DNA of 64,000 nucleotides, from positions 32,001 through 96,000 of the IMG/VR virus record IMGVR_UViG_3300010938_000009; one strand, given 5' to 3'. Below are positions 1,012-50,777 of this stretch, piece by piece. Under the pieces are notes generated by a model. That model did no database searches and was not told the DNA's origin. It saw nothing but the letters and a program-made list of their open reading frames with translations. The position numbers and the translations under genes are program-made. The first letter of the stretch is position 1; each line of letters begins with the position of its first letter. This DNA comes from a virus.

Positions 1012-1255
1012 TTTCTTTCATTTTTTCTAATTCATATTCTGATACTGTCCGACGGTAGAACTCTAACTTAGCGCACTCCATTACTCCTATTAAACTATTA
1101 GCTACATAGTAACTTTGGTCGCTTTGTTCCCAACAAATCTTTAACATACTACTTATTATGTAATTTAGTTCCCCTTCGGTTCCTGGGGTTTTTTCTTTGA
1201 ACTCGCTTAGTATTTTGTCGTATTTGTCTCTTAGGTTTCCTTTTATGTAAGGCAT
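998..1255 (-). CDS. Conserved phage hypothetical protein (MPYI...GELNY...KLEFYRR...YE...NGD type)
   Basis: Motif pattern familiar from small phage proteins; overlaps neighbouring genes. Confidence 0.6.
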   Translation of the reverse strand: MPYIKGNLRDKYDKILSEFKEKTPGTEGELNYIISSMLKICWEQSDQSYYVANSLIGVMECAKLEFYRRTVSEYELEKMKENGDI

Positions 1256-1526
1256 CGTTTGGCTCCTGTTTTGGTAACTCTGTACCGTATAATAAACTCC
1301 ATAATTCTAAATTACCTTTTGGTAAATCTTTTTTAGCAATACTATAAATACTATTTTGAGTATAAATAGTAGGCGGTTTTTCTGTAATCTTTTTTATAGC
1401 TGACGTATAAATAAACTGTCCCGTAAAAAACTTAGGATTACCTATAGCGTATCCTGAAGCTCTATAACCGTATTCAGTTTTAATAAAAGTTACGTTTTTT
1501 AGTTTAAATTTTTTTTCTTTTTTCAT
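1149..1526 (-). CDS. Hypothetical protein
   Basis: ORF track; ATGA overlap with the upstream pseudogene. Confidence 0.5.
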   Translation of the reverse strand: MKKEKKFKLKNVTFIKTEYGYRASGYAIGNPKFFTGQFIYTSAIKKITEKPPTIYTQNSIYSIAKKDLPKGNLELWSLLYGTELPKQEPNDALHKRKPKRQIRQNTKRVQRKNPRNRRGTKLHNK

Positions 1527-2536: not shown

Positions 2537-2943
2537 ATTTATGATTTAACCTCTTTTTATTAAGTTGTATTACTATTATTAAAGCTCCTATAAAAGCTAT
2601 GGCTGTAGGAGCAGTAGCTACAGGTAAACCTAGTTTAAATATAGCTAGAAGTAGTAACTCTTTAATAAAGTATTGTAAAGTGTAGTATATCATTAAAAAT
2701 TGAAAAAGCAACATTAAACTAAAGATATATTTATTATTCAACATATAGTCCCTCCGTTAATTCTGTAACTAACATGAAATTAGCTAGGGGATTTAAATGT
2801 TTCCATTGTAAACTTAAAGTGCTTCCATTAAGAATTACTTCGAATCTATACTCATTACAAACTTTTACTATGGCTTTTTCATATTTATTATTACTATTTA
2901 AATAAATTATTTTATCACCTGGTTTAAAATTTAAAGGTTTCAT
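2517..2943 (-). CDS. Two small hypothetical ORFs (2517-2744 membrane protein; 2734-2943 with C-terminal LY motif)
   Basis: ORF track; coupled overlaps. Confidence 0.55.
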
Positions 2944-17371: not shown

Positions 17372-18164
17372 TTTTTACCTCTATTAATTTCTGTAGTTCT
17401 ACTGGAGTATCGTCTACTATTAAGTTTTCGTCTACCTCTTCTTGTTTATATTCATTTATAACTATATTTGCTAATTTATTTTGACCTATTCTAGCTAATA
17501 ACTTATTAGTTAGGTTGGTCATTGTTTTTTTATCTACGGGTTTACTTAAATGTGTATCTCTAACTTTTCTAAAGTTACCTCGTTTTTTAGGTTCTATAAT
17601 TTTATCTGCTAAACCTAAAGTTATACATTCTTTAGCTGTCAAATATAAATCTCTTTGACAAACTTCTTTCCAAAATTCTTTTGGCATATGGCTATTTTCT
17701 GAATAGATTTTGTATAATACTTCCATTAATCTCTTTGACTCATCTGCTTGAATATGCACATCTGTATAATTGCCTTCTATTCCTTCCCAACCATTATGAA
17801 CCATAACTGTTGAATGAGGGTACAAATACCTTTCATCGCAAGCCGCCATAACCCAAGTAGCTGCACTCATAATAGCTCCACCGCCAAAAAACTTAATTTG
17901 ACAGGTAGAAGCTAGTATAAAATCATGTAGGTATAACATAGCATAAGGATCTCCACCATAAGAATTCATGTGTATTTCTATAGGTTTCTTAGGGTGATCT
18001 GCTATCATCTTACCCATAGCTCTTATAACGTGACTTACAGAATCTATAGTAAAATCTGAATGAGAACTATGACTAGAGTCAATAGGTACTCCAAAATAGA
18101 TTTTTCTATTCTTCTCATCTACGCCATAAACTACAAAGCTTTCTAATTCTATTCTAGTTGACAT
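17355..18164 (-). CDS. clpP: ClpP-like protease
   Basis: MNSYGGD, IMSAA (Ser), VMVH (His), RDLYLTA.E....GLADKI. Confidence 0.85.
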   Translation of the reverse strand: MSTRIELESFVVYGVDEKNRKIYFGVPIDSSHSSHSDFTIDSVSHVIRAMGKMIADHPKKPIEIHMNSYGGDPYAMLYLHDFILASTCQIKFFGGGAIMSAATWVMAACDERYLYPHSTVMVHNGWEGIEGNYTDVHIQADESKRLMEVLYKIYSENSHMPKEFWKEVCQRDLYLTAKECITLGLADKIIEPKKRGNFRKVRDTHLSKPVDKKTMTNLTNKLLARIGQNKLANIVINEYKQEEVDENLIVDDTPVELQKLIEVKNESKE

Positions 18165-27073: not shown

Positions 27074-27827
27074 AATCCCTTTTCTTTAAAGAAGCGTAAA
27101 TATAGAAACTTATAAGATAACTTAATAGCTTCTGTGTGCCCTTTTTTCATTAAATATTTTGATAGATTAGCTAACTTCATTGCATCGTTTATAGTTAAAC
27201 TATTATCTCCGTTAAGTAATCTAACTCTTAAGGCTTCAGCTTCTTCTAATAATTTTATATAGCTAGTTTTATCTAGCTTTTTGTGAATGTGTTCTTCTAA
27301 AGAAGCCACTTTATCATCTTTATCGTCTTTCATTATTAATTTCCTCTAATAAATCAGTTAAAGTAGCTATTGCAGATTTATGGAATACTACCTTATCTTT
27401 TAGAGACATTAATTCGTGAGCTGTTTTAATCTTTTCTTCTGTAGATATTGTACTGTTATTTTTTAGGTTGTCAAGTTTTTTCTGAATTTTAAGTAAAGAG
27501 CTATTACTACCGTTAATTTCTACCTTATGTTCAGATATTTTAGTATTTATAAGTTGTTGTAATTTATTAATCTCCATATAATTCCTTAGCTAACCTATTA
27601 CGTTTAAATACTATAACGTAAGTTGTACTAATAACTGTCATAGGTACTGAATAATGTAAAGGTGTACCATGAGTAGCAACACTATAGTTATTATCATAGT
27701 CTGTACTTACATTAGGTAGTATTTGTACTACTTCCCAACCTCTTTCTAAACTCTCACTTATACGGTAGTCTATACTAGAAGCTTTTATATCAGTTAGCGT
27801 ATAATATTCATACTCTAGTTCTTTCAT
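27070..27827 (-). CDS. Three hypothetical proteins (27070-27333, 27320-27577, 27567-27827)
   Basis: ORF track; coupled overlaps. Confidence 0.55.
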
Positions 27828-28381
27828 AAATATAAACTTTCTAACATTTCGTTATTAAAACCTAAATTGTATTCTTTATTCAATAAAAATAATAGTTTAT
27901 AATATAATTCTGTATATTTAGTTTCTTTTTTGAAGGCATTGGTGGAGCAGGAGGCGGCATGGGCGACATCAGCAGCAGTAAAGGCGGTATTGGCGATGGC
28001 GGCATAAGCGGCATAGGAGGTAGCATAGGCGGCATAGGCGGCGGCATAGGCGGAGTCCATGGTGGTTTCGGTGGTGGTGGCGGAGGTATAGGCAGTATAA
28101 GCGGCGGCATTGGCGGTATTGGCAGCGTTTTTTAAATCTTTTATTTTATCTTTAGTTGGATTTAAAATGTAATTTGCTAATAATTCCAAACAAATTTGCC
28201 TAGTTTTATAAACTTCAGGATATTTTTCTTTGTTGTAATATTGTTCTAAATTTAAAGCACATTGGTAAGCAAACTTTACTTTTAATAAATGCGGCAAACC
28301 TTTTATATTTAGAAGATTGGTAAGTTTAGTTTTATAGGTTAATTCTTTATTTTGAATAATTAAATTAATTTCAGTTTTCAT
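27824..28381 (-). CDS. Protein with Ala/Tyr-rich (AAYAA) repeat region
   Basis: FAYQCA...followed by a GC-rich GCC/TAT codon repeat. Confidence 0.65.
   Translation of the reverse strand: MKTEINLIIQNKELTYKTKLTNLLNIKGLPHLLKVKFAYQCALNLEQYYNKEKYPEVYKTRQICLELLANYILNPTKDKIKDLKNAANTANAAAYTAYTSATTTETTMDSAYAAAYAAYATSYAAYAAIANTAFTAADVAHAASCSTNAFKKETKYTELYYKLLFLLNKEYNLGFNNEMLESLYL
27932..28127. repeat. GC-rich degenerate GCC-GCC-TAT codon repeat
   Basis: Several GGCGGCAT copies on the + strand within an AT-rich genome. Confidence 0.8.
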
Positions 28382-29001: not shown

Positions 29002-29340
29002 TTATTTAAGATAAAGTAATTTATCCATTTCATTTATCTCAAATTCTATCCCATCTTGGTTTTTAAGTACTTTATCATTTGCGTCTATAATGAATAAACT
29101 GACATGAGCTATAGTATTAAACCCATATGGTTCACTACTTAAGGGACTTATTACATCTAATATATCTTCTTTTCTAATAAGAAAATAGTGTTCTATAGTT
29201 TCAGGCCAATGGTCATCTAGTTTACTCGTAGAAAAGTATTTTCTTTCTACTATCAACTCTTTACCATATTTACTTTGATAATATAACCAAGCCTTCTTAA
29301 GTCTTAGATAAGCTGTCTTATTTTCCTTGGTTAGTTTCAT
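29002..29340 (-). CDS. Hypothetical protein with C-terminal LY motif
   Basis: ORF track. Confidence 0.55.
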   Translation of the reverse strand: MKLTKENKTAYLRLKKAWLYYQSKYGKELIVERKYFSTSKLDDHWPETIEHYFLIRKEDILDVISPLSSEPYGFNTIAHVSLFIIDANDKVLKNQDGIEFEINEMDKLLYLK

Positions 29341-30893: not shown

Positions 30894-33290
30894 TTACTTC
30901 CTTTTCTGCACTTCTACTTTAGTTTTAGCTCCCCAATCATACTGCACTTTACAGTTAGGTAATAAAGCCCATAATACAGGGTATTTAGGTTTTTTTAGCT
31001 CATTACCTTCAAAGTTCATACCATCAGTAAAGTAAATTAAACCGTCTATTTCTAAGTCTTTACACTTATCAAATACAGGTTTAAATGCAGTACCACCTCT
31101 ACCTTTAAACTCAAACTTATGTTTAGGATCAAATTCTCCTATCCATTGAATTTTAGCATCACAAGCTATTAAAGTAATTTTAACGTCATCTCTATGTATT
31201 CTATCTACTTCCGCCATAAATTGATTTAAACACTCTGTATCAACTGAACCTGATTCGTCAATAGCTACTGCTAAGTGTAGTTTAGGATAAACTTTAGTTC
31301 CTGGAAAAATAATACCATAACGTCTATTTCTAGCTTTTCTTGAGGACTCAATAACTATTTCTGCTGTTTTAGCTACAAACCTTTGTAAGTCTTGTTTCCA
31401 GTTTTTAGGTTTATAATTAAGCCTATTAATAGCTTCAAGTATATCTCCAGGTAAATTACCTATACCGCCACTTTGTTCTACAGATTTATTAATTATAGAC
31501 TTTACCTTTTCAGTAACATATTCTTCATCGGGATTACCTTCAGCCCATAAACTATGATCATCAATTATTATAACTCCTTGTCCACCGCTTTGATTACCAT
31601 CTTTACTTTCTTCTTGCTTAAGAAATTCATAGTAATATTCCATATTTTGCCTATGTTCTATTCTAGGTATTTCTTTCTTTAAGTCTTCTACTAAACAAGG
31701 TCTACCTTCCATTGGTTTACCTGCATCTAGACTAGGATTAGGTATTTTATTACCATCTTTATCCATTATTTCAGTAGGATGACGCATTACATTACCTTCT
31801 TTATCAAACATTTGTAGTTTTTTAGGTAAATTAGGTAAATATTCATTAATAGCATAATCTGCGGCTCTGTTTAATCTATTAGCATCAAACATACTTTTAA
31901 TTTTATCAATTAAAGGTTTATCTTTTTCTAACATATTAGGTTCAAGGAAATTAAACCTGTGAAAGTGATTCATCATTACATGATAACAATTGTGTACAAG
32001 AGTTTTATTTGCAAAAAAATTATGATTATCAGCTACAGTAATATCATACAATTGTGATCTTACAAACTTTTTATTTTTTACAGAAATTATCTTTTTTGCT
32101 GAAAATTCTAAAAAGTTTGTATTAAGTTTTTTAGAATTTAATTTATTATAATATTTTTCAGAAATTTTATATTTCATGCTATTATGAATATAAGGTGCTA
32201 TTAAAGCAAATAATTTATTTGTAGCTTCTTTTTTTAATTTAATATTAAATAAATGTGGTTTTCCAGATCTTTGTTTAATTTCTGATCTTAAACCAAATTT
32301 ATTTTTTAAAGTTTTTACAATAAGTTTTTGTTCTTCCAAAGAAAAACCTTCCGTATGAAAAAAAGAAGAACCATAATTATTCCAACTTCCATCATCCATA
32401 AACCAAAAAGCTAAAGCTACAGTATCTAAATTTTTCATTAAAAACTTAATATTTTTTTTGTTTTTAATATAAACTAATTCTCTTAGTTTTTTTGTTTGCT
32501 CATTAGTGCCATGATTGATCCTTAAATTAGAGTATTCATTTTTATAATCGCTCCAACTATTTACAATTTTTCCACCTAATATAGAATGTTTATATTCTAT
32601 ATAATCTTTATGAATTTTGCTTCCAGTAGAAGAAAATTGACCTGTAGAATTAATACAAGAATCTCCCAATAAACAACCGATAATTACACTTAATTGATCT
32701 TTATTGAATAAAGGTCTTTCTTTGTTTCTTTGTCTATCTATATCTATTTTTCTAATACTATATAAATTTTTAGCTTTTTCCGCTTCAATATACTCTATTT
32801 TTGGATTAAATATATCTCTAGTTACAGCTATTTTATGATCATTCGTACAAACTACTGAAGAGTATAAATAAGGACTTTTAGCATATTTCAAACTTACCCA
32901 TCGTTTATTAGGATAATCTTTAATAGGTTTTTTAGAATAACCTATTACTGGTTTATATTCTAATTTTCCTTTTTTAGATAAAGATAGAACATTTACTTTA
33001 AGTTTATTTTCTACTATTTCTCCAATAGTAATATCTCCTTTATCTGTTTTTACTAATACGTTTTTAGCTACACATTCATGCTTTAAAACGTCTACTTGCT
33101 CTGTTAATGACATACTTTTCCAAAAGAAAGGGTTAACATACAGATTTACATTATCTGTAACATTAACTCCCAAAGTTGGTACATCAGTAGTATAAGTTCT
33201 AGTCATATTTAATATTAAATTAGCAAAAAAGGGTTCTTTTTTAATTAACTCTGTTATCGCTACTTCTATTAAATTTGCATGGTTACTCAT
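30894..33290 (-). CDS. Metallopeptidase-VWA (DUF2201-type) protein, intein-containing
   Basis: HE|CYH after splicing, N.AAD.AIN, DDH..W, VAIDESGS, GRGGT.F, YFTDG. Confidence 0.88.
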   Translation of the reverse strand: MSNHANLIEVAITELIKKEPFFANLILNMTRTYTTDVPTLGVNVTDNVNLYVNPFFWKSMSLTEQVDVLKHECVAKNVLVKTDKGDITIGEIVENKLKVNVLSLSKKGKLEYKPVIGYSKKPIKDYPNKRWVSLKYAKSPYLYSSVVCTNDHKIAVTRDIFNPKIEYIEAEKAKNLYSIRKIDIDRQRNKERPLFNKDQLSVIIGCLLGDSCINSTGQFSSTGSKIHKDYIEYKHSILGGKIVNSWSDYKNEYSNLRINHGTNEQTKKLRELVYIKNKKNIKFLMKNLDTVALAFWFMDDGSWNNYGSSFFHTEGFSLEEQKLIVKTLKNKFGLRSEIKQRSGKPHLFNIKLKKEATNKLFALIAPYIHNSMKYKISEKYYNKLNSKKLNTNFLEFSAKKIISVKNKKFVRSQLYDITVADNHNFFANKTLVHNCYHVMMNHFHRFNFLEPNMLEKDKPLIDKIKSMFDANRLNRAADYAINEYLPNLPKKLQMFDKEGNVMRHPTEIMDKDGNKIPNPSLDAGKPMEGRPCLVEDLKKEIPRIEHRQNMEYYYEFLKQEESKDGNQSGGQGVIIIDDHSLWAEGNPDEEYVTEKVKSIINKSVEQSGGIGNLPGDILEAINRLNYKPKNWKQDLQRFVAKTAEIVIESSRKARNRRYGIIFPGTKVYPKLHLAVAIDESGSVDTECLNQFMAEVDRIHRDDVKITLIACDAKIQWIGEFDPKHKFEFKGRGGTAFKPVFDKCKDLEIDGLIYFTDGMNFEGNELKKPKYPVLWALLPNCKVQYDWGAKTKVEVQKRK
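31989..33074 (-). mobile_element. Intein (362 aa) with LAGLIDADG endonuclease, inserted in the HExxH motif
   Basis: LKHE|CVAKN...CTNDHK...GCLLGDS...WFMDDG...LYDITV.DNHNFFA..TLVHN|CYH. Confidence 0.9.
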
Positions 33291-33293
33291 AAA

Positions 33294-34388
33294 TTAAGTC
33301 TTTCCTCTAGCCTTTTTAATAATTTCTATAATTTCTTTATCAGCTTGGAACATTTCTCTACAATTTTCTAAGATGTATAACTCATGAAGTATGTTAAAAC
33401 ATAACTCTCTTGGAATAGTTTTAACAAAACCGATAATATTTTCTTCTTCTTTTTTAGTTAATTTCTTGTTACTTTTTCTTGACTTAAGGTTATCCATTAA
33501 GTCATCACAAGTATATTTAAGTAAATCAATTCTACCACCTGTTTCAGAATTAGAATACTTTTCAAGTCTTTCTTTAAAGTCTGGAAAGTTTTTGATAATA
33601 TCATTAGCTGAAATAGGTTTATCTTTATTTTTAAGTGAAGACATAAAAGCCACTGTAGCTTCATGTCCTATTAGACCATAACATAGTTCTTGTAATAAAG
33701 GTAGTGGAGTTTTAGCGGCGATTAGTCTGTTAACGCTGTCCCAACTACGTCTACTAGGTTTAACTTCTTCTAATGTAAATTCTTCTAGTTTACTTTGAAG
33801 TAATTCAGGTTGATCTACAATAAAGTTAATTACTTCTTTAGAAAAGTTAGTGTTTTTAGCATACTCTATCCACTCTTGTACTGATGGGGATAGTTTAATA
33901 TGACAAAACCTATCCATTAAAGCTTTATCTGACACATCTGTTACTATATAATCTTCTGTATTTGGATTTTGGGCGGCGATAACATATACATTTTCAGGTA
34001 ATGTAATAGTATGCATTTTTCTATCCAACACTAGTTGAAATACCGCTTGCAATACGTCTCTTCTAGCTCTGTTAAATTCATCTAGAAAAATAATACCATA
34101 TTTCTTAGGGTTTTTATTAGCCCAATCAATTAGCTCTGTTAGCCATTTTGGAGTCATAAAAACTGTAGTTGTTTTATTGCCTGACTTATCTGTACCAAAA
34201 TCAGGTAGACCTAATAAATCTCCTACATCTTGTGTACCTAGTCTTAGGTCAACAAATTTATGTCCACCTTCCTCTGCAAACTGCTTTACAGCTTGTGATT
34301 TACCTATTCCATGATGTCCAATTACCAATGGCGCAATATTTGACTGAAACAAATAAGGTAATGCCTCTTTGAATGTACTAATAAACAT
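33294..34388 (-). CDS. MoxR/AAA_5-type ATPase
   Basis: GHHGIGKS, DLRL, D..GLP, FLDEFNRA, AAQNP, ALMDRF, SRRSW. Confidence 0.9.
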   Translation of the reverse strand: MFISTFKEALPYLFQSNIAPLVIGHHGIGKSQAVKQFAEEGGHKFVDLRLGTQDVGDLLGLPDFGTDKSGNKTTTVFMTPKWLTELIDWANKNPKKYGIIFLDEFNRARRDVLQAVFQLVLDRKMHTITLPENVYVIAAQNPNTEDYIVTDVSDKALMDRFCHIKLSPSVQEWIEYAKNTNFSKEVINFIVDQPELLQSKLEEFTLEEVKPSRRSWDSVNRLIAAKTPLPLLQELCYGLIGHEATVAFMSSLKNKDKPISANDIIKNFPDFKERLEKYSNSETGGRIDLLKYTCDDLMDNLKSRKSNKKLTKKEEENIIGFVKTIPRELCFNILHELYILENCREMFQADKEIIEIIKKARGKT

Positions 34389-34456: not shown

Positions 34457-35809
34457 CTATTTTCCTATTAATTTAATTAAAGTTTTACTTAATTTTTTAA
34501 TTGTTGATTTTTTAAAAACTATTTTATTTTCAAAATTAAAGTGATTTAAACCTACATATTCTTGGTCATTAAAAATATAATGTTCTACCGATAGTTTATC
34601 ATTGATTTTATATTTTTTCAAAACTTTTATTTGTTCTTGCTCCATTTTAGCCTTTCTTAAAAAATTATTATTTGTTCATAATTTATAGGTAATACTATAA
34701 AACCTTCTATAATCTGATTATTATAGATTATTCCATAAGTTTCATTTATATAATATTTTCTACATTTAGTTTTACCTATAACAAATAAAGGTTTAATTTC
34801 TGCAATAGGAGGTATTTCTGAATCTTTTAAAAACCTTCTTTTACTTAGATCTGTGTTATTAATATATTCTTCAAATTTAACTTTTTTCTTTTTTATGAAA
34901 AATTCTTTTATCGTTTTTAGCATTTTTAATCTCTTCATTTTTATTCCTTGATTTAAAATAATCTTCTTTTTCTTTACGTTTCATTTCCTGATAATACTTC
35001 ATAACTTTTTCATCAGCTTTACCTCTTTTAAGAGTTTCTTCCACCTCTTTTATAGCCAGTGCCGCCATTTGTTTGCTAGGATATAATCCACAAATAGTAC
35101 CTTTATTATCTACTAAAACGTACCATTTTCCTGTAGCTTTTAAATTATACTCCGGATATTCTGTACTCCACTCACCTCTTTCTTGAATAACTAATTCTAA
35201 TTTACTCATATAACTCCTTTTATAAGTATAGATTTTTTACTAAATCTTTATTATCTACTCTAACGCATAACTGTTCTATTTTAGTTTCATAATATCTTGC
35301 TAACTCTTTTGTTTTTACTTTAACTAGATCATAAAGATAACCTTCTTGTTTACCTCTAATTGGTAATGTTACATCTATTACTTGTAAGTAACAATTTTTA
35401 TCTGATCTATAAAACATATCTCCAACTTTATATTTAGGTTTTCTTTTTTTAATATTCATATTTCTAATCCTTCCTGTTCTAAAGTTAACATTAGATTATC
35501 TAATTGATCTTTTAATTTTATATATTCATCATGTTCAGCTTCAATCATTTGATATTCTATTTCTTCAAGTATATTAAATAATTCTATTTCTTTCATATAT
35601 ACCTTTCAATGTATTAACTGACTTTTAATATATTGTTCATATATCATTTTTAATTGTTCATCATCCATATTTAATAAGTCTTCTAAAGCTTTATTTTGTG
35701 CGTATTCTAATAAATCTTCTTTATCCCAAAATTCCATATTTTCTATCAATGTTTCAATCATATCATTTTTTTGTTTGTCTGTTAGTTTCATTGTTTGCCT
35801 TTGGTGCAA
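34457..35809 (-). CDS. Cluster of small hypothetical ORFs (34457-34645, 34657-34938, 34877-35209, 35220-35459, 35606-35809)
   Basis: ORF track; co-oriented, several with Shine-Dalgarno sites. Confidence 0.5.
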
Positions 35810-36479
35810 GTTTTATATTAAATATTGTTTTAGCTAATTTTCCTGTATATATAGCCGTAGCCTGACTAGTACCTTCCCAACATACATTATAAAAACAAGA
35901 TTTACCTATTTCATAGGTATGAACAATTATACCGTAATTACTTTTTTCATGTAAGGTATTATTATTTTTTAAATTACCTACTACAATAAGATTTTTAATA
36001 TTAGTGTAACAAGCAGGATATACGTCACAAGTTTTTGTTGTAAGGTTTTTACTATCATTTCCAGCACTTACTACAACTTTTATACCTAAATCACTAGCTT
36101 TTGATATAACAAAATATTCTTTAGTTATAAATTTCTTTCCAGATAATGATATATTAAGTAAATCTACTTTATTTATAATAGCTTTATCTACTGCTTTGTA
36201 AACTGTGCTAACGTCTTTTATATTATATTTATATATAACCAAACAATAATCTATTGTACCAAGATTTTCTACAATTGTCAAAGCTATATTTGTGCCATGT
36301 CCGTTAAAATCTCTACCAATCCCTTTTTTATTAGTTTCAAAGTCATAATGCCCTTTAGAGCAAAGTTTTATATTGCCTAATTTAGTTAAATCTAATCCAG
36401 TGTCAATTATCCCAATTTTTACTTGGGCGGCATAAACCAAATTTATGTTCAATATAAGTAATATTAATAATTTTAACAT
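35763..36479 (-). CDS. Subtilisin-like S8 serine protease with signal peptide
   Basis: IIDTG, GHGT, SAGND, YPA, SNYG, GTSQAT catalytic triad motifs. Confidence 0.85.
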   Translation of the reverse strand: MLKLLILLILNINLVYAAQVKIGIIDTGLDLTKLGNIKLCSKGHYDFETNKKGIGRDFNGHGTNIALTIVENLGTIDYCLVIYKYNIKDVSTVYKAVDKAIINKVDLLNISLSGKKFITKEYFVISKASDLGIKVVVSAGNDSKNLTTKTCDVYPACYTNIKNLIVVGNLKNNNTLHEKSNYGIIVHTYEIGKSCFYNVCWEGTSQATAIYTGKLAKTIFNIKLAPKANNETNRQTKK

Positions 36480-40011: not shown

Positions 40012-40656
40012 TCATTCTACTTCATTCCAAGTAGTATTATCATAATTCTTTGTTCCATGGTAAACTAATCCTACTTTATGATTATCAGTCAAAGCTAGGT
40101 TATCGTCTTTACTAGCGTCAATATAACCTTGCTCTATTAGTTGCTCTAAACTCTCAAATACTCTGCTATGGCGCTCATTTTCTGCCTTAATTAAATTGTC
40201 TTGTTTACCGCCATAACTGTATATGTAGTTAAAATTTACGGGCATAAGTCCCCTATTTTCAAAGTCTTTAAAAACCTTAACCATTTTAGTATAAGCATAA
40301 AATTGAGTACTAGGATTAAGTCTCATTATTTCTAACCATTTACTTAAATATACAGGACTATAGAAATCACCACTATCATGTATTCTAACCCTTAAAACTT
40401 TACGTCTTTTAATCTCACTATCAATTACTTGTACAAATGAGTCACTTAGAGTCAATTGTAACCTTTCCTCAAATGCCCTAGCTACATTACTAAATCTATA
40501 TGTACCCATTGTAGCATAACAACCTTTCACGCATTTATCAGCCATAGGACAGGTAACTAGTCCAGTATTAGACTTATATGCTGGAATACCAAAGTTATAA
40601 GTTTTAATACCACTCATAGACTTAATCTTACTATTTTGAGTTAAGTAATTTTTCAT
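40012..40656 (-). CDS. Gp88-like protein
   Basis: NSK, TCP.A..C.K.CYA, RIHDSGDFYS, FYAYTK. Confidence 0.8.
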   Translation of the reverse strand: MKNYLTQNSKIKSMSGIKTYNFGIPAYKSNTGLVTCPMADKCVKGCYATMGTYRFSNVARAFEERLQLTLSDSFVQVIDSEIKRRKVLRVRIHDSGDFYSPVYLSKWLEIMRLNPSTQFYAYTKMVKVFKDFENRGLMPVNFNYIYSYGGKQDNLIKAENERHSRVFESLEQLIEQGYIDASKDDNLALTDNHKVGLVYHGTKNYDNTTWNEVE

Positions 40657-44039: not shown

Positions 44040-44221
44040 CTATTCAATGTTATATTATAGTCAGTGTATAGAAGTTCTATAGTAATAATAACATAGGTTA
44101 TAAGTGACACTTGTAGTTATAGTATTACAAGAAGGGGTATACGGTGTAAAAAATGACACACCCCACACCCAGGGGTACTCAAGGTCTCTTTTTTAAATTT
44201 TAAAAAAATTAAAAACGGGGC

Positions 44222-44250
44222 TTGACGATAGTCAAGAAATAGATTACACT
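44222..44250 (+). promoter_or_regulatory. Sigma70 promoter with UP element and overlapping palindrome
   Basis: TTGACG-17 nt-TACACT; CTTGAC-GATA-GTCAAG palindrome; A-tract AAATTTTAAAAAAATTAAAAA upstream. Confidence 0.65.
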
Positions 44251-44257
44251 CTTCAAC

Positions 44258-44371
44258 ATGACTCAATATAATCCTGGTGATATCCTAGAACTAACACTAC
44301 AACAACATACAGGACTACCTACTCTAGTACCAGAAGCTAATAAAGTACTAATAAAACAGCTATACTTCTAA
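44258..44371 (+). CDS. 37-aa leaderless microprotein with LY C-terminus (not in ORF track)
   Basis: MTQYNPGDILEL...VLIKQLYF*; ATG at the predicted TSS. Confidence 0.5.
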   Translation: MTQYNPGDILELTLQQHTGLPTLVPEANKVLIKQLYF

Positions 44372-44640
44372 TAGCTTATTAGAGCCTCTACAATCAATTA
44401 TAATACCCTTTCTACTACTAACTCTAGTCCTACTACTTACAATCGATCTAATAGCCTTCTAGGCTCTTTAAACTTACATTATAAGTACGGGGGATTAGCC
44501 GCCCCTTCTAAACTGCTAATAACTAGCATTTTCGGAAGTTAAATTGCTGTAAGTTATTGTAATTACGTAAGGGGTAGCCCTAATAACTAGCGTTTTTAGC
44601 TAGTTACTGGTTAAAATTTTAAAAAAATTAAAAAAATAGC

Positions 44641-44669
44641 TTTACAAGTCCTATAAAGTAAGCTACAAT
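44641..44669 (+). promoter_or_regulatory. Sigma70 promoter with the same A-tract UP element
   Basis: TTTACA-17 nt-TACAAT preceded by AAATTTTAAAAAAATTAAAAA. Confidence 0.6.
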
Positions 44670-44792
44670 AAGCCCTATAGCTAATATTAAAACAATTATA
44701 GGGAGTTTGAAGTAGGGCCTTGCTACCGGACTTAGCTAATGCCTTAAAAAACGGATTAATAGTACCTTATAATTAAATAACTAAGGAGATTT

Positions 44793-47700
44793 ATGAAAAA
44801 TAAGAAAGAGCCTATATTTGATAATTTTAAAATAGAACTTGGGCCTGAAATTGATAGAAGTAGTTGGAATATTACATTAAATAGCGATTCAGATTTAGGT
44901 GTATTACCTTTTAAAGAAAGAATACAACAACAAATCAAACATCATAAAGATAGCCTAGAAAAAGCTGAAGAATGCTTAAAACAACTAGAAGCTGCTAAAT
45001 ATAAGGAAGGGGACGTACTTTTACATAAAACTAAAGGTAAGGTATTTGTAATTGAGGTTTATATAGATGAATATATTAAACCTGGAATTTTATATAAAGT
45101 TAGCTGTCCAGGGTTTGACAGGTTTCTAACTTACCAAGAAGAAGAATTATTACCTTTAAATGAACTTACACAAGGGTTATATGACTCTAATTAGAACTGT
45201 TAAGGACTTAAGGGGCCTCGGCACCGAAGTCCTTAAAAAGGAATTAGAGGCTTATATAGGAATTGAACTTTATAGTAAAACTGAAAGAAAAAGCTTTATT
45301 ATTGACCAAATTATTTTTAATTTAGATTTAGCTCCAAATCAATCCTATTCTGATTACAGAGCTATTGGAACTATATTTGTTTCTCCTGTCTACTTAGATA
45401 GGTTTTATATAGAAAGAGTTACTACAGTTTCAGCTAATGTACTACATTTAGAGACTTTTGATACGTTTATAGAACAAAACCTTAAACCCATGCTAGATAA
45501 CTTAGTACTTGACTTTAAAACTGAGTATGTTAAACTAGATACTGAAATGGCTAAAATACTATACAAAAAGGACTAATAATGGCTATTAATAAATACAAAT
45601 ACTTAGAAGAAGCTGTAGAACAACTTAAACCTATTATAGCTCCTTATGTAGGTAAAACAATGTTTTGTAGAAAATATAGAGTATTATTACAAATAGTAGA
45701 ACCTAAATTAACGATATATTATAATAACCCTTATATACTTTATGCAGTTGATAATATTGATAATCTTGAAAATATTTTTGCAATAAGTAAGTTTTACAAA
45801 GATTTTGAAGGCTATTATAAGCCTAACATAGATTTTAAGTATATTCAACATACTGTTATAACTAATATATTAAATATAGACTTTAACGACCCATTAGCTA
45901 AAGCCTTATATTCAAGGATTTAATAATGAAAAATGAAGTATTCCAAATTATTCAGACTTGTATTCAACCTTATAGTAAACAACTAGTTTATAGTTTATAC
46001 CACCGTAAGTTTGTTTCTTGCACTTTTACTACTGGTTATAACATACGTCCGCCAGCTACCGAAGAATCAGATTACAGCTATTTACTAACTATTACAGCTA
46101 GTTGTACTGATAATAACGCTATTTTAATACCTATACATCTAGATCTTATACTTAATAGTTTAACTCCTTTAGCAGAGGTACAAGCTAAGGTACAAACTGC
46201 CCTAGACCAACAATTTGCTATTATACCTGCAACAGAACTTAGTGAGACTCTATATGGCTTCGATAACGAATAATTACGTAATTTTATATAATAAAAGGAC
46301 TAAGGAGTTTTTTGAGCAAGATTGTGATAGTCCTATTATTAAAGCTATTAAAAATATTGATAATTTAAGAGATTTTCTACACGGTTTAACTTTAGCTGAA
46401 TTTAATAACTATAATATAGATAGCGTAACAGGGGATGCTTTTTATCAAATTTGGCACGATAAAGGAATTACAAGTATAAGTGTAGAAGACGTTAGAAATA
46501 ATAACTGGGTAGTTTTACCTAACACAGAATTAACTAAGAGTTTATATGGCCTCTAACCTAAAATTTAAGGTCGGCGACATCATTTGTAATAAAAAATATC
46601 CAGGACTACTACTAGAAATAATAAATATTAACTGTTACCTAGACGGTTGTTATTATACAGTAAGGTTATTAAAAGAACTTTTTGAAGTACCTTTTAGACA
46701 AGAACAAGCAGAAACAGAGTATGAATTAGTTGCTAATGAAGAAGCTATAACCCTAAAGTTATTATATGATAAGTAATTATAAAGTAGGTAGTTACTTATT
46801 AGATAATAAGAAGGAACTATTTGTTATAACTAGTATTAATATTATAAACGATACTATTAGTACTGTAGGTATTACTAGGATTAAAGTGCCTACTTATAAT
46901 ACTACAGTTGTTAGTATAGAGGGTAGTATTGTAAGTTTAACTAGTAGAAACTATTTTCAAGTAGTACCAGAACAGGATGTAGAGTTAACGGAATTATTGT
47001 ATAAATGAGGTCTTAATGGACTTTTCATGTTTACCACCATTAAGCCCAGGATGGGATCACCTCTGTTTTGAGCAGAAGGTTTACATTATACATATTTCAG
47101 CCCATAATAGGAGTTTATGAATAGAGTATCAAAATATATTAATACTACAAATAAAACGATTATAGAGCTAAATAACTATGTTTTACAAAGCTTTAGAGAA
47201 AAAGTTCAAGCTTTAAGTTTGAATTCTGACCCTTACCTTTTAAAAAACTACTTATCTCAACAAATTAAGGTTTTTAAACCTCAATCTAATTGTAAGGAAT
47301 ATTATTCTATTGAACAATTATTGAATGATTTCAAAGAGTTAACTCCAGAAGAGGAAGCTATAGCAACTTTATTATATGAATAAACCTCAATATTATACCT
47401 ATGAAGGTACTTTATTTAAATTAATACATTTTAACAGTTTAAATTCTTGTTGCCTTATGTTAGGCTTAAATAAAAATAGCCTTAAAACCTACCCTATAGA
47501 GTATATAGAAACTTATTTTGAGCCTTTAACTAATTACGATGAAAGTATGATAGACTTACTTTATGGTAAAAAGGACGCTGCGGAAGCCGTGCATGATCTA
47601 TGTCATCAAATTCTAACAAAACACTTAAAAATCTAGAAGGAAAGTGGTTCAAACCTATTTTTGGACAGTTAATATATAAGGGCGAAAATACTAAAATTTA

Positions 47701-49184
47701 CATTTCTGACCCTTTTCTTATCAAACGCCTTATAAGAACTAATCCTTACCGAGGTGACGAGTTCTTAGTAAAAACGCTAAATCCCAATTACCCCGAAGTT
47801 ATAATAGTATTAGATATGATGCTATTAGAACCTTATGAACCTACCGAATTAGAAAAACTACTCTATTCTTAATCTTATGCTAACTTTCCTTAAAATATTT
47901 TATAATACAGGTCTAGGTATATTTTACGCTGTAAATAAACTTATTTCTATTAAAAATTACTTTAAATTTCAAATACTTAGGTTATTTTATTATATATTAA
48001 TAAAAACTAAGGGTAAAGCTTTTCCTGAATTTAAAACTGGAGAATATTGTTTTTATTTAGATAGAGATAAAAAAGAACTTATTCCTGTTGAAATATTAGA
48101 TTTACGTTGGGAATATAATGAAAACTATGAAATCTACGTTAAAGGTAATTATAAAAATCTTATAGGTTACTATATAAAAGATTTAAAAATAACTAATAAT
48201 AGTCAATTATGGGGTAAATTAGCCTACCCTTACGACTTATTAAAAATAAACGACGAAGAACTAATAGATATACTAAAAACTCTGTATAAAAGGGATTAAT
48301 GTTTAAAAAAGGCGATTTCATTCACCCTATAGAAGAACAGGTAGAAGCTTTAATAACTACGGGCAAAAGTCAGTATATTCTACTTTTCGGGCCTAAAAAT
48401 ATATTTATAGTTCACAGTTTTAATAAATGGCACTTGATATTTCAGTATTTAGATGATAAAACGACTTATATTGAAGGTTTATATACTAAGTTCAAACTAG
48501 TAGAAGACCCAACTCAATTAGAACTACTACAGGCGTTATATGGACAAGATTACTAAAAGATACGGAGAATACCAAGGCACTATTTACGAAATCGTAGGTT
48601 ACGGTTATTGTAGATTTTGTACTCCTGGTAATGAAAGTCTTTACGAAGGAAATGTTCTGTGTTTTCAACTAAAACCTCTTATTAGAACTAACCCTAAATC
48701 TATTACTACAACTACTACTTATCATGTAAGTGGTGATGCTGTTAGTCATACTGCTACTTATTATCCTAATAGTTCTTTCTACGTAGAAGAGACTTCAGTT
48801 ACTGAAATAGAAGACCCTTCTACTATAGAGGCTCTTAACGTATTATATAACCTATAATAACTCTAATAACAAGTATAACCTTTTATGCATATACAACTAA
48901 TGTATGAAATGATGGAAGCTGTGTACGATACCTACAAAGATGTAGAAAATACTAGCTTACTAAAGTTTCCTATAAATACTACTAATACTATAAAAGATTT
49001 TAATATAGACGATCATGCTATATGTTGTTATAGTATAGGTAATTACGTTATAGTAGGTTATAATGTAAATAAGTTAGTAGTTCGTAATATAGAGAAAGGT
49101 TATCTTGTTTGCATTTCTCCACGTTTTTTAAAAGTGGTTGAGGACAAAACAGAGCTTTTTAAAGCTATTTACGGTAAAAAGTAA
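44793..49184 (+). CDS. Tandem array of 14 small hypothetical ORFs sharing a C-terminal helix-(L/I)Y motif
   Basis: ORFs 44793, 45160, 45579, 45926, 46215, 46546, 46766, 47117, 47376, 47600, 47877, 48299, 48540, 48885; several contain FK.GD/YK.G. SH3-like strands. Confidence 0.7.
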
Positions 49185-50180: not shown

Positions 50181-50777
50181 ATGCAAGACGACGAAAAAAA
50201 GCCAGAAGATAAGACTGATAGACAAATTTCTATGAAAGAGAAGGCTAAAAGAGGCGGCCAAGTTTCTGTTATTAAAATGGAAGCTAAAAGAGCTTTAAAA
50301 GAATACAGCAACCCTGATTCTAAATGGGACCTTATACAAGAGTTATACCAAGAAATACAAGCTCTTTATATTAGTGTAAATCCAGACCAACCTATGCCGA
50401 CTGTCCCAAAATTGAGACAACATTTAATAGATGAAATAAAATTAAGATATGAAGATGAACCAGAATTAAGAGATTTATTACTACAATGCCTTCCTAGCAC
50501 TGACCGATATATTAGAGCTTGGTATAAAAAAGAAGGTTGGATGGATGCAGTTTGGGATAAAGTTAGAGTTAAAGGTTTATTTACAGAAAGTAAAAGATCT
50601 CAAGTTATAGAAGCTTTAAGAAAAAGAGCTATAGAAAAAGATACTGCAGCAGCTAAAATATGGTTACAACTTTCTGGAGATTTAGTAGAAAATAACCCTA
50701 TAGCAGCTTCAGATAAAGCTCAAGATTTTTATAGAGAAATTAATAAAATTTTACATAGTAAAAAAGGTAACGAATAA
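50181..50777 (+). CDS. Putative terminase small subunit
   Basis: Immediately upstream of TerL; helical, 'AL...A.EKDT.AAKIWLQL.G'. Confidence 0.55.
   Translation: MQDDEKKPEDKTDRQISMKEKAKRGGQVSVIKMEAKRALKEYSNPDSKWDLIQELYQEIQALYISVNPDQPMPTVPKLRQHLIDEIKLRYEDEPELRDLLLQCLPSTDRYIRAWYKKEGWMDAVWDKVRVKGLFTESKRSQVIEALRKRAIEKDTAAAKIWLQLSGDLVENNPIAASDKAQDFYREINKILHSKKGNE

What the first reader, a model, noticed from the sequence alone, without database searches (positions are those of the whole stretch)
44258..49184. Array of 15 unrelated small proteins sharing a C-terminal helix-LY tag
Seen C-terminal segments: LIKQLYF, ELTQGLYDSN, EMAKILYKKD, PLAKALYSRI, ELSETLYGFDNE, ELTKSLYGL, ITLKLLYDK, ELTELLYK, AIATLLYE, SMIDLLYGKK (internal), ELEKLLYS, DILKTLYKRD, ELLQALYGQDY, EALNVLYNL, ELFKAIYGKK. 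The bodies are dissimilar and the codons vary, so selection appears to be on the peptide. In about a third of cases the Tyr codon overlaps the next gene's ATG, but most do not. Inference: a modular docking, degron, export or packaging signal that routes many early effectors to one partner, such as a host or phage hub, the MoxR/VWA chaperone or the phage ClpPs.
Basis: partly seen in the sequence, partly recalled or inferred. Interest (0 to 1): 0.8.

Follow-up and report, generated by a model that had tools for sequence, protein, structure and literature searches.

The report
Shared LY tail on phage proteins
Fourteen neighbouring small genes of an uncultured 104-kb phage, and well over a hundred small genes in its relatives, end in the same short helix (…E-L-x-K-x-L-Y-G), which selection keeps at the protein level and which probably serves as a common contact surface, although its partner is unknown.

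Summary
All 15 quoted tails are present. In the array, 13 of 14 ORFs carry [LI]Y in their last 8 residues, against 8 of 85 other small ORFs of the genome.

The tail, P-x-[TN]-[ED]-[LMA]-x-[KE]-[VIA]-L-[YF]-G followed by 0-6 residues, marks a whole clade of about 100-kb uncultured phages. I found 137 distinct tail-bearing proteins in 23 of 25 sequences examined.

Selection acts on the peptide:
- Leu codon use matches background.
- Enrichment survives removal of every tail whose Tyr codon holds the next gene's ATG: 33 of 447 against 11 of 8981.

Tails also differ by genome without any excess codon identity, which points to a shared reader.

- The Tyr codon holds the next gene's ATG in about half the cases, not a third, and codons there are tuned towards a Shine-Dalgarno site.
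- The bodies are not all unrelated. About half share a KOW/SH3-like signature 45-98 residues upstream of the Tyr.

Earlier notes of this scan describe analogous shared tails with other sequences in other phages.

The parts
44192..44226 (+). A/T-rich 35-nt element ending in a -35-like hexamer, copy 1, just upstream of the 44258 ORF
   Evidence: Direct repeat family D5, 83% identical to 44611-44645. TTGACG-17-TACACT listed at 44222-44250. The promoter scan as a whole is not above shuffles (49 found against 42.7 +/- 6.7), so a promoter role is inferred.
44258..44371 (+). 37-aa ORF ending ...LIKQLYF; marginal member
   Evidence: Tail matrix score only 5.8. Contains a P-G-D-I-L signature.
44611..44645 (+). 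A/T-rich element, copy 2, with TTTACA-17-TACAAT (44641-44669) ahead of the array
44793..45194 (+). Array gene 1 (133 aa), tail NELTQGLYDSN; the Tyr codon holds the ATG of gene 2 (14-nt overlap); GD signature 60 aa upstream of the Tyr
   Evidence: score 10.6. Homologues in L001 and L003.
45181..45576 (+). Array gene 2 (131 aa from the embedded ATG), tail TEMAKILYKKD; no embedded ATG
   Evidence: score 19.6, the best in the genome. The ESM Atlas model is of low confidence, with alpha/beta neighbours.
45579..45923 (+). Array gene 3 (114 aa), tail DPLAKALYSRI
   Evidence: 13.9.
45926..46273 (+). Array gene 4 (115 aa), tail TELSETLYGFDNE; embedded ATG of gene 5 (20-nt overlap)
   Evidence: 18.2.
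46254..46556 (+). Array gene 5 (100 aa), tail TELTKSLYGL; embedded ATG of gene 6 (11-nt overlap)
   Evidence: 16.9.
46546..46776 (+). Array gene 6 (76 aa), F-K-V-G-D start, tail AITLKLLYDK; embedded ATG of gene 7 (11-nt overlap)
   Evidence: 6.5.
46766..47008 (+). Array gene 7 (80 aa), Y-K-V-G-S start, tail VELTELLYK
   Evidence: 13.7.
47117..47383 (+). Array gene 8 (88 aa), tail EEAIATLLYE; embedded ATG of gene 9 (8-nt overlap)
   Evidence: 7.2.
47376..47636 (+). Array gene 9 (86 aa), motif ESMIDLLYGKK 23 residues before the stop
   Evidence: (internal score 8.4).
47600..47872 (+). Array gene 10 (90 aa), tail TELEKLLYS
   Evidence: 14.8.
47877..48299 (+). Array gene 11 (140 aa), F-K-T-G-E signature 85 aa upstream of the Tyr, tail ELIDILKTLYKRD
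   Evidence: 11.2.
48299..48556 (+). Array gene 12 (85 aa), F-K-K-G-D start, tail LELLQALYGQDY; embedded ATG of gene 13 (17-nt overlap)
   Evidence: 9.3.
48540..48857 (+). Array gene 13 (105 aa), tail TIEALNVLYNL; N-terminus homologous to a 76-aa family found in 7 relatives
   Evidence: 11.0.
48885..49184 (+). Array gene 14 (99 aa), tail TELFKAIYGKK; member of a family with 61 representatives in which the tail L and Y/F are the most conserved columns after Met1
   Evidence: ESM Atlas structural neighbours are SH3/KOW-like.
2734..2943 (-). Tail-bearing small ORF outside the array (69 aa, F-K-P-G-D start, tail TELTEGLYVE)
   Evidence: (14.3).
27567..28381 (-). Two adjacent tail-bearing ORFs (86 aa, ...RLAKELYGD; 185 aa, ...NEMLESLYL)
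   Evidence: (11.0 and 11.5).
29002..29340 (-). Tail-bearing ORF (112 aa, ...NEMDKLLYLK)
   Evidence: 10.5.
35220..35459 (-). Tail-bearing ORF (79 aa, Y-K-V-G-D start, ...DLVKNLYL); homologue in the second near-complete genome G001 also carries the tail
   Evidence: (7.3).
1149..1526 (-). 125-aa ORF with the motif (...LELWSLLYG) at residues 70-82, followed by a 45-residue basic extension
   Evidence: (10.1).

Best explanation
The LY tail is a two-turn amphipathic helix. It has an N-cap Thr/Asn/Asp, an acidic first turn, Lys/Glu in the middle, an invariant Leu-Tyr(Phe) and a Gly cap. It ends a large, very fast-evolving set of small non-structural proteins in a clade of about 100-kb uncultured phages. 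These proteins are probably early, because they sit on either side of a divergent promoter-like region. Shown: the tail is kept by selection on the amino acids, not on the DNA, and it changes in concert within each phage genome. Inferred: it is the common contact surface through which these proteins meet one shared partner (phage- or host-encoded) or each other, while the variable body does the specific job. In about half of them that body is a KOW/SH3-like small barrel. Also shown: the codons of the tail (Lys/Glu, then Val/Ala/Ser, Leu, Tyr, Gly) are used in about half of the genes as the Shine-Dalgarno site and ATG of the next gene. Each gene therefore carries the translation start of whatever follows it.
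For: Clade-wide:
- 137 distinct tail-bearing proteins occur in 23 of 25 sequences examined: G000 plus 24 loci with terminase 63-77% identical and GC 29-42%. The two without a tail have no sequence upstream of the terminase.
- Held-out enrichment at score >= 10: 60 of 474 C-terminal blocks against 13 of 8983 internal blocks.

Selection at the peptide level:
- Leu(-1) codons are used as in background (chi-square p = 0.62).
- 22 of 137 tails have Phe, whose codons cannot form an ATG.
- Gly follows the Tyr in 25 of 71 tails without an embedded ATG.
- Enrichment persists without embedded-ATG tails (33 of 447 against 11 of 8981).
- In the one family with depth (61 representatives at 50% clustering), the tail Leu is L in 60 of 61 and the next column is Y or F in 61 of 61. 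These are the most conserved columns after Met1.

Concerted change within a phage:
- Identity at positions -8..-2 between BLAST-unrelated proteins is 23.3% within a phage and 15.3% between phages (536 and 8697 pairs; 0 of 2000 shuffles reach this).
- Control windows at -29..-23 and -36..-30 show no such effect (286 and 327 of 1000 shuffles reach them).
- The effect holds for members of the 5 families present in 3 or more phages (20.6% against 14.5%, 0 of 2000).
- It holds for tails without an embedded ATG (25.1% against 16.3%, 0 of 2000).
- There is no excess codon identity: 743 observed against 757 expected at 1741 same-residue positions.

Helix: the helical hydrophobic moment is 0.367 for tails against 0.303 for internal 9-mers (p = 1.8e-7). 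The capping pattern is read from the logo.

Dual coding:
- 66 of 137 tails hold an ATG in the Tyr codon plus one base, and 62 of those 66 open an ORF of at least 35 aa.
- The Lys/Glu codon ends in G in 29 cases against 15 ending in A in those tails, and in 19 against 27 in the others (p = 0.02).
Against: - No partner was found, and no binding or structure was tested (structure prediction closed).
- Within-phage likeness could partly reflect old paralogy that BLAST misses. The orthologue test covers only 5 families.
- About half of the proteins share a G-D signature at a set distance, 45-98 aa upstream of the Tyr (64 of 135 against 66 of 442 other small ORFs). For these the helix may simply be part of one fold.
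- The link from body to helix is short, with Pro commonly at -9 and Thr at -7. Typical docking tags hang on flexible linkers of variable length.
- Tyr/Phe use differs between phages only weakly (285 of 5000 shuffles reach the observed heterogeneity).
- Later checks recorded in this scan priced 'one partner reads the tail' for analogous tails in other phages at 5-33% (AI notes, not evidence).
- My ORF calls are crude.
- The scoring matrix fixes positions -1 and 0 by construction.
Confidence: 0.42

Rival explanations
1. Framework only. The proteins are one hyper-diverged paralogous superfamily of small KOW/SH3-like barrels. Only the first strand (F-K-x-G-D) and the closing C-terminal helix remain recognisable. 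The tail is structural, capping the barrel, and has no common partner.
For: - The G-D signature occurs in 64 of 135 tail-bearing small proteins against 66 of 442 others. In 55 of the 64 it lies 44-98 aa upstream of the Tyr.
- Weak profile links between tail-trimmed families all fall on that first-strand motif. The best of 325 pairs are 88.6%, 62% and 48%.
- Pfam KOW matches 2 of 137 members (best E 6e-7), CarD_TRCF_RID 2 of 137, and several SH3 or KOW models one member each.
- NCBIfam gives weak NusG, UpxY and L24 hits.
- The PDB profile search's best hits are an SH3 domain and L24 proteins, E 0.014-1.
- ESM Atlas neighbours of the 48885 ORF are SH3/KOW-like.
- Within-locus paralogues exist in L007 and L008.
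- In three ORFs of this genome the motif is followed by 10, 23 or 45 more residues, as expected for the end of a domain.
- All 61 representatives of the 48885 family keep the tail; none lacks it.
Against: - 104 BLAST clusters come from 137 proteins.
- Half of the tail-bearing proteins lack the signature. Among them is a 185-aa, apparently helical, low-complexity protein (27824-28381) and the 131-aa protein with the best tail in the genome.
- A purely structural helix in different proteins gives no reason for genome-specific tail differences shared by unrelated and orthologous proteins alike.
- No array ORF of the window reaches any Pfam KOW or SH3 model.
Confidence: 0.3
2. Timed-destruction signal. 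The tail is a degron that hands early proteins to a protease, either the phage's own ClpP-like enzymes or subtilase, or a host AAA+ protease, once they are no longer wanted.
For: - The genome encodes two ClpP-like proteins (17355-18164 and 6836-7720), an S8 subtilase (35763-36479), a MoxR-type AAA (33294-34388) and a VWA-like/metallopeptidase protein (30894-33290).
- A second near-complete genome of the clade (G001) also has two ClpP-like genes and the VWA-like gene.
- The tails sit on small non-structural proteins, not on structural ones.
- From memory, not tested: some known protease degrons are hydrophobic or aromatic C-terminal stretches.
Against: - The distance from the Tyr to the carboxyl end varies (0 to 6 residues in the 137; counts 1, 43, 38, 22, 12, 12, 9), and reaches 45 in one ORF. 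End-anchored degrons of the ssrA kind sit at a fixed position.
- No ClpX- or ClpA-type unfoldase was looked for or found.
- Co-occurrence with the proteases could not be tested, because the other relatives held are half-genomes: 0 of 4 fragments show ClpP and 1 of 4 the VWA-like gene.
Confidence: 0.1
3. By-product of gene overlap. The motif is only the in-frame reading of the next gene's Shine-Dalgarno site, spacer and ATG, with no role for the peptide.
For: - 66 of 137 tails hold the ATG, and 62 of 66 open an ORF of at least 35 aa.
- Lys/Glu codons ending in G are preferred in those tails (29 against 15, versus 19 against 27 in the others, p = 0.02).
- An SD-like 4-mer lies 5-14 nt upstream in 29 of 66 embedded-ATG tails against 17 of 71 of the others.
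- In L007 and L008 the reading GAG-GCT-ATA-TAT-GAG is a textbook SD plus ATG.
Against: - 71 of 137 tails have no embedded ATG yet keep the motif. They remain 65-fold enriched at C-termini and keep Gly after the Tyr in 25 of 71.
- Phe variants and TAC codons cannot give an ATG (22 and 28 of 137).
- Leu codons are used as in background.
- The conserved Thr-Glu-Leu lies upstream of any SD.
- There is no excess codon identity.
Confidence: 0.04
4. Recombination junction. The conserved gene end is a micro-homology at which small-gene cassettes are swapped between phages or converted within a genome.
For: Turnover of array genes is very high: only 5 of the 14 array ORFs have any BLAST hit at E <= 0.01 in eleven related loci. 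Genes come and go at gene boundaries while flanking orthologues stay in order.
Against: - Codon identity at same-residue tail positions within a phage is 743 observed against 757 expected from codon usage. At Leu(-1) it is 107 against 128.7. The DNA is therefore not homogenised.
- The tails share too few identical bases for homologous exchange.
Confidence: 0.04

Closest known systems
Shared terminal docking peptides of phage proteins (from memory, not read here: hydrophobic/acidic C-termini of T4 gp43, gp33 and gp55 that bind the gp45 clamp; acidic C-terminal tails of T7 gp2.5 and gp4 that dock on the polymerase)
   Same: Several otherwise different proteins of one phage end in one short peptide that is read by one partner. 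The tail lies at or near the C-terminus and ends hydrophobic-aromatic-Gly.
   Different: Here dozens of small proteins of unknown function carry it, not a few replication or transcription proteins. The spacing of the hydrophobic residues differs. No clamp gene was found in the genome with Pfam PF00712 or PF09116. The partner is unknown.
[quoted passage not shown]
   Same: These are phage early proteins with 'very dissimilar sequences' that share a small five-stranded barrel, are dispensable in the laboratory and evolve quickly. Section 2.2 also cites an LSm-fold protein of putative cyanophage origin that has a C-terminal helix.
   Different: The parts I read mention no common C-terminal peptide. 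There are three T4 proteins, against 8-15 per genome here. The barrel here rests on weak evidence only: a sequence signature, weak Pfam and PDB hits, and one Atlas model.
   Same: Leu-Tyr-X at the very end occurs in 43 of 137 tails. The phage encodes ClpP-like proteases.
   Different: In 94 of 137 tails the Tyr is not penultimate. HbYX docks on proteasome alpha rings, not on ClpP. Tested here as a positional rule and not met.
Cargo-loading or capsid-targeting peptides (encapsulin cargo peptides; the T4 capsid targeting sequence of internal proteins); from memory
   Same: One short terminal peptide routes many different proteins to one place.
   Different: Those cargos are made late, together with the shell. 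These genes lie beside promoter-like elements of host type and in the non-structural half of the genome. Packaging could not be tested.
Translational coupling of overlapping genes (PMC6728339 and PMC12548453; search listing and abstracts only)
   Same: Co-directed genes overlap, and the upstream coding sequence carries the downstream start signals.
   Different: According to the PMC6728339 abstract the usual overlaps are ATGA or TGATG. Here they are 8-20 nt, always in the same relative frame, and are tied to a conserved peptide.

Membership tests
KOW / SH3-like small barrel (Pfam PF00467 and relatives) | Match to the family model above its curated cut-off | tested here: not met
   Window array: no KOW or SH3 hit for any of the 14 ORFs at E <= 1, and no PF00467 match anywhere in G000 at E <= 10. 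Relatives: KOW in 2 of 137 members (best E 6.1e-7), plus single weak SH3_1, SH3_2, SH3_12 and KOW_SPT5 hits.
KOW / SH3-like small barrel (Pfam PF00467 and relatives) | Five-stranded barrel fold | tested here: inconclusive
   The ESM Atlas's own model of the 48885 ORF (pLDDT 0.67) has SPT5-KOW, MS-channel and other SH3-like neighbours at TM 0.46-0.54.
End-anchored C-terminal tags (ssrA-type degrons, PDZ ligands, HbYX) | Fixed position relative to the free carboxyl end | tested here: not met
   Counts of tails with 0, 1, 2, 3, 4, 5 and 6 residues after the Tyr/Phe: 1, 43, 38, 22, 12, 12 and 9 of 137. Extensions of 10, 23 and 45 residues occur in three ORFs of this genome.
Clamp-binding C-terminal peptides | A sliding clamp encoded by the phage | tested here: not met
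   PF00712 and PF09116 give no match in G000 at E <= 1. A host clamp as target cannot be excluded.
MazF/PemK-CcdB toxins (from memory: SH3-like barrel followed by a C-terminal helix) | Match to PF02452 or PF01845 | tested here: not met
   PF02452 gives no match in G000 at E <= 10. CcdB gives a single hit at E = 0.083, 13.6 bits against a cut-off of 28.6, on the 45926 ORF. Neither family is among the 25 families listed for the 137 members, out of 73 matched.
DUF3104 (PF11302), nearest named ESM Atlas cluster by features | Match to the family model | tested here: not met
   No match in G000 at E <= 10. The Atlas score was 0.82-0.87, below the tool's own 0.9 line for more than a lead.
Packaging or ejection cargo signals | Presence of the proteins in the virion, or late co-expression with the capsid | not testable with these tools
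   No sequencing run was listed for the array, and no proteomics exists for an uncultured phage.

The most novel reading that the evidence does not exclude
The tail is an address label read by one phage-encoded hub that co-evolves with it. The hub would be, for instance, the MoxR-AAA/VWA-metallopeptidase pair or the ClpP-like proteases. Through it a phage could collect, activate or dispose of its whole changing set of small early effectors as one group. The label's coding sequence would double as a portable ribosome-binding site and start codon, which would let new genes be slotted in behind any labelled gene.
Probability: 0.17. Interest if true: 0.85.

Novelty: new variant of a known kind. 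Interest (0 to 1): 0.6.

Why it matters
Small early phage genes are the least understood part of phage genomes, and many anti-defence and host-takeover factors lie among them. A peptide shared by 8-15 such proteins per genome would give a handle on all of them at once if one partner reads it. Such a peptide is conserved when everything else about the proteins changes, and it shifts together within each genome. One bait peptide could then fish out the partner, and one motif search would list the effector set of any phage of the clade. The finding is also a clear natural case of dual coding, in which a conserved peptide and the next gene's translation start occupy the same bases. Earlier notes of this scan report comparable shared tails, with other sequences, in several unrelated phage groups, so the arrangement may be general.

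Tried and rejected
Family searches:
- Pfam, PHROGs and NCBIfam on the array ORFs and on all 137 tail-bearing proteins gave no informative family. The only signals were 3 weak PHROG hits and weak KOW/SH3-class hits.

Relatives in phage collections:
- A nucleotide search of the array against GenBank phages found no match.
- The terminase finds only 24-27% identical T5/SSU5-type relatives among cultured phages.
- A single-protein scan of IMG/VR found nothing. An alignment query was needed.
- A word-indexed homologue search with the 48885 ORF alone found only itself. The profile search worked.
- Three long hits of that profile search (P0179, P0181, P0183) were repetitive proteins with unrelated Pfam domains. 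I dropped them from alignment A4.

More distant relatives:
- L010 (terminase 48% identical) and L114 (43%) share no small-protein bodies with the LY clade at E <= 0.01. A 'same body, different tail' test was therefore not possible.

Candidate hubs:
- Co-occurrence of candidate hubs with the tail is inconclusive. The four further IMG/VR records are 43-54% complete: ClpP in 0 of 4, VWA-like gene in 1 of 4.
- Metagenome loci L085, L086, L109 and L114 were not held for whole-record search.

Other negatives:
- Rfam and tRNA scans of 42-50.5 kb found nothing.
- The sigma-70 consensus scan is not above shuffles, 49 against 42.7 +/- 6.7.
- Sequencing runs: none was listed and no RNA holder was listed.
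- The segment at -17..-10 shows no beta-type hydrophobic periodicity. I dropped the claim that a strand visibly precedes the helix. Only hydrophobic enrichment at -10, -11 and -13 remains.

Literature:
- No paper describing this tail was found with the searches. The single 'LYG motif' hit concerns human motifs.
- The cited cyanophage Sm-like structure paper is not held.
- Supplementary files were not consulted.

Rows left out of counts:
- Identical proteins were counted once.
- Loci L084 and L100 (the same contigs as L005 and L009) and short loci without upstream sequence were not analysed.
- L004/L006, L104/L109, L095/L096 and (from then on) L091/L092 were merged as one phage for the tests of genome-specific tail differences.
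- One tail-bearing ORF of G000 outside the window is not in A2.

Full report
SETTING

The window is bases 32001-96000 of a 104,283-bp virus record with direct terminal repeats and 31% GC. Its large terminase is only 24-27% identical to terminases of cultured T5/SSU5-type phages. The array has no nucleotide match in GenBank phages. Metagenomes hold a large group of relatives: 119 non-self terminases at 67-77% identity are listed, several on contigs of 100-120 kb.

Genes left of about 44.1 kb run on the minus strand. They encode replication and accessory functions, including two ClpP-like proteins, a MoxR-type AAA, a VWA-like/metallopeptidase protein carrying an intein, a subtilase and a GP88-family protein. 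Genes right of 44.2 kb run on the plus strand: the array first, then the terminase, portal and structural genes.

Two copies of a 35-nt A/T-rich element ending in a -35-like hexamer lie at 44192-44226 and 44611-44645. The general promoter scan is not above shuffles. Calling the array 'early' is therefore an inference from position.

THE OBSERVATION

All 15 quoted tails are present.
- By a simple criterion ([LI]Y in the last 8 residues), the array scores 13 of 14, other small ORFs of the genome 8 of 85 and larger ORFs 4 of 58 (P = 5.8e-13).
- A position matrix trained only on 79 tails from nine related loci was run over 30,007 positions of this genome's proteins. Fifteen of its 20 best hits lie within five residues of a C-terminus.
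- In unused reading frames only 2 of 897 ends reach a score of 10, against 14 of 157 called ORFs.
- The same tail ends small minus-strand ORFs elsewhere in the window: 2734, 27567, 27824, 29002 and 35220. Another first-stage note on this genome had pointed to such cases.

THE CLADE

I used an alignment of 20 terminases to fetch relatives: nine close ones from IMG/VR and about fifteen more with usable flanks from metagenomes.

In these loci, small ORFs on both arms of a divergent intergenic region upstream of the terminase end in the same way. GC content ranges from 29 to 42%.
- Across G000 and 24 loci (825 ORFs), 137 distinct proteins score at least 8.
- They come from 23 of the 25 sequences examined. 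The two without a tail have no sequence upstream of the terminase.
- Median length is 85 aa, range 40-185.
- In sequences not used for training, 60 of 474 C-terminal blocks reach 10, against 13 of 8983 internal blocks.
- A second near-complete genome, G001 (97.5 kb), has 15 ORFs scoring 7 or more among its 148. They lie in its non-structural half and in its array, apart from one small conserved ORF (69652-69930) just after the terminase.

The logo reads as follows:
- Pro is frequent at -9.
- Thr/Asn/Ser/Asp at -7.
- Glu/Asp, sometimes Pro, at -6.
- Leu/Ala/Met at -5.
- Lys/Glu at -3.
- Val/Ile/Ala/Leu at -2.
- Leu at -1 in 127 of 137.
- Tyr in 115 and Phe in 22 at position 0.
- Gly at +1 in 71 of 136.
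- Then 0-6 further residues.

This is the pattern of a short helix with an N-cap and a Gly C-cap (established helix-capping rules; an inference). The helical hydrophobic moment is modestly but clearly above that of internal 9-mers (0.367 against 0.303, p = 1.8e-7).

PEPTIDE OR DNA?

The reading K/E - A/V/S - L - Y - G/E corresponds to AAG/GAG - GNN - TTA - TAT - GNN. That is a Shine-Dalgarno core, an A/T spacer and an ATG in the other frame.
- In 66 of 137 tails the Tyr codon plus one base is ATG.
- In 62 of those 66 the ATG opens an ORF of at least 35 aa.
- In the window this holds for six junctions, with overlaps of 8-20 nt, always 3n+2.
- Codons are tuned for this use. The Lys/Glu codon ends in G in 29 of those tails and in A in 15, against 19 and 27 in the other tails (p = 0.02).

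It does not explain the motif:
- 71 tails have no embedded ATG, and they remain 65-fold enriched at C-termini (33 of 447 against 11 of 8981).
- Phe (22) and TAC (28) variants cannot form an ATG.
- Gly still follows the Tyr in 25 of the 71 tails without an embedded ATG.
- The six Leu codons are used at -1 as they are elsewhere in these genes (p = 0.62).
- In the family of the last array gene, the tail Leu (60 of 61) and the aromatic residue (61 of 61) are the best conserved columns after the initiator Met. That family has 61 representatives from a search of 1.84 billion proteins.

Selection is on the peptide. The DNA-level use is secondary.

ARE THE BODIES UNRELATED?

By BLAST, mostly yes.
- There are no hits between array members.
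- With tails removed, the 137 proteins fall into 104 clusters, 90 of them singletons.
- Only 5 of the 14 array ORFs have any hit (E <= 0.01) in eleven related loci. Turnover is very high.

There is nevertheless a second shared landmark, h-x-x-G-[DEST]-x-h (typically F-K-V-G-D).
- It occurs in 64 of 135 tail-bearing small proteins against 66 of 442 other small ORFs (p = 7e-14).
- In 55 of the 64 it lies 44-98 residues upstream of the Tyr. Five of the 14 array ORFs have it.
- Profile-profile comparison of tail-trimmed families gives only weak links. The best of 325 pairs are 88.6%, 62% and 48%, and all fall on that motif.
- Weak but recurrent family hits are all of one class: KOW, uL24, CarD/TRCF-RID, SPT5-KOW, SH3, NusG and UpxY.
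- A profile of 55 such domains finds an SH3 domain and L24 proteins first in the PDB, E 0.014-1.
- The Atlas model of the 48885 ORF has SH3/KOW-like neighbours.

About half of the proteins are therefore probably small KOW/SH3-like barrels closed by the LY helix.

The other half gives no such sign. It includes the protein with the best tail in the genome (45181-45576; low-confidence alpha/beta model) and a 185-aa low-complexity protein.

Membership in any named family is not met for the window's own ORFs.

GENOME-SPECIFIC TAIL DIFFERENCES

Tails differ between phages in a genome-wide way. Examples:
- L009 has Trp at -5 or -4 in all four of its tails.
- L007 and L008 have Ala at -2.
- L003 and L086 often have Phe.
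- L095 has Ile at -5 and Leu at -2.
- This genome has Thr/Asn-Glu-Leu.

Quantitatively, for pairs of proteins whose bodies are not BLAST-related:
- Identity at the seven variable positions -8..-2 is 23.3% within a phage and 15.3% between phages. None of 2000 label shuffles reaches this.
- The excess fades with distance: +1.8 points at -15..-9 and +1.2 at -22..-16. It is absent at -29..-23 and -36..-30, so amino-acid composition does not explain it.
- It holds for members of the five families present in three or more phages (20.6% against 14.5%, 0 of 2000). For those genes a recent within-genome duplication is not the explanation.
- It holds among tails without an embedded ATG (25.1% against 16.3%).
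- Codon identity at same-residue positions is as expected from codon usage: 743 against 757 at 1741 positions, and 107 against 128.7 at Leu(-1). Gene conversion or recombination at the junction is therefore not the cause.

Concerted change at the amino-acid level across unrelated proteins is what a shared reader, or mutual tail-tail contact, predicts. A purely intramolecular structural role does not predict it.

Tyr-versus-Phe heterogeneity alone is weak: 285 of 5000 shuffles reach it.

WHAT KIND OF READER?

The Tyr is penultimate in only 43 of 137 tails, and three ORFs of this genome carry 10-45 residues after the motif.

No phage clamp was found.

The phage does encode candidate hubs: two ClpP-like proteins, a subtilase and a MoxR-AAA with a VWA-like partner. 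G001 also has the ClpP-like and VWA-like genes. The other records held are half-genomes, so co-occurrence could not be tested.

No structure prediction was possible.

VERDICT

Supported:
- Selection is at the peptide level.
- The motif is independent of the ATG overlap.
- The tails evolve in concert within each genome, which is a new argument for a common reader.

Corrected:
- The bodies are partly one barrel class.
- The ATG overlap is present in about half the cases and is functionally exploited.

My odds:
- 0.42 that the tail is a common contact surface for a shared partner or for the proteins themselves.
- 0.10 that it is specifically a degron.
- Under 0.05 each for an overlap by-product and a recombination junction.

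PRIOR WORK

I found no description of this tail in print with the searches.

The nearest published ideas:
- Small early T4 proteins with dissimilar sequences but a common LSm/SH3-like barrel (PMC12152347, abstract and section 2.2 read; PMC7827196, passages read).
- From memory, the shared C-terminal docking tails of T4 and T7 replication proteins.

Earlier notes of this scan record analogous shared tails with different sequences in other phages. This is one more instance of a recurring, still unexplained pattern. It adds genome-specific co-variation of the tails and a double use of the same bases.

Noticed in passing
L010:2384-6820 and 8218-8346: In a more distant relative (terminase 48% identical), about ten small ORFs of 42-108 aa end exactly at the stop in a different shared hydrophobic tail, V-L-W-[IL] or V-L-F-F. 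They lie between larger genes with HExxH-like motifs. Several are odd, aromatic-rich sequences, so their reality as proteins is uncertain.
   Followed up: partly
L114:2157-2745: Three tandem 67-68-aa paralogues end ...L-K-x-L-K-C-S-K. This is ordinary recent duplication. There is no LY tail in this phage, whose terminase is 43% identical.
   Followed up: no
window 30894-33290 (-): The VWA-like (DUF2201) / putative metallopeptidase gene carries an intein with a LAGLIDADG endonuclease (Pfam hits). It lies next to a MoxR-type AAA gene at 33294-34388.
   Followed up: no
window 40012-40656 (-): A GP88-family protein (PF17338, E 1.7e-40). ORFs ending in the same ...YHG-x-K-x-Y-x-N-T-x-W-x-K-V string lie beside the tail-bearing arrays in most relatives.
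   Followed up: no
window 47009-47116: This spacer between array genes 7 and 8 is noticeably GC-richer than its surroundings. It holds a 34-aa ORF without the tail and may be a remnant or a small RNA. Rfam found nothing there.
   Followed up: partly
window 44372-44792: A 420-nt non-coding stretch lies between the 37-aa ORF and the array. It has G+C-rich hairpin-like segments and the second copy of the A/T-rich promoter-like element. There was no Rfam or tRNA hit.
   Followed up: partly
window 46287-46315 versus 44768-44796: A 29-nt copy (83% identical) of the TATAAT...TAAGGAG ribosome-site region that precedes array gene 1 lies inside array gene 5, out of frame for any start. It may be a relic of an older gene start.
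   Followed up: no
window 50181-50777 and its counterparts in all relatives: The roughly 190-aa protein just upstream of the terminase ends in a conserved ...R-E-I-N-x-I-L-H-x-K-K string in every relative, including the distant L010, L011 and L114. It has no Pfam family.
   Followed up: no
window 17355-18164 (-): The ClpP-like protein has an internal stretch (...RLMEVLYKIY...) that scores 13.1 with the tail matrix. I take it to be a helix of the ClpP fold that resembles the motif by chance; this was not examined.
   Followed up: no
G001:69652-69930, L109:12148-12426, L011:3066-3368: A conserved small protein of about 92 aa downstream of the terminase ends ...M-L-Y-K/P-G-K-K-K in close and distant relatives. 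It looks like a separate conserved gene, not an array member.
   Followed up: no
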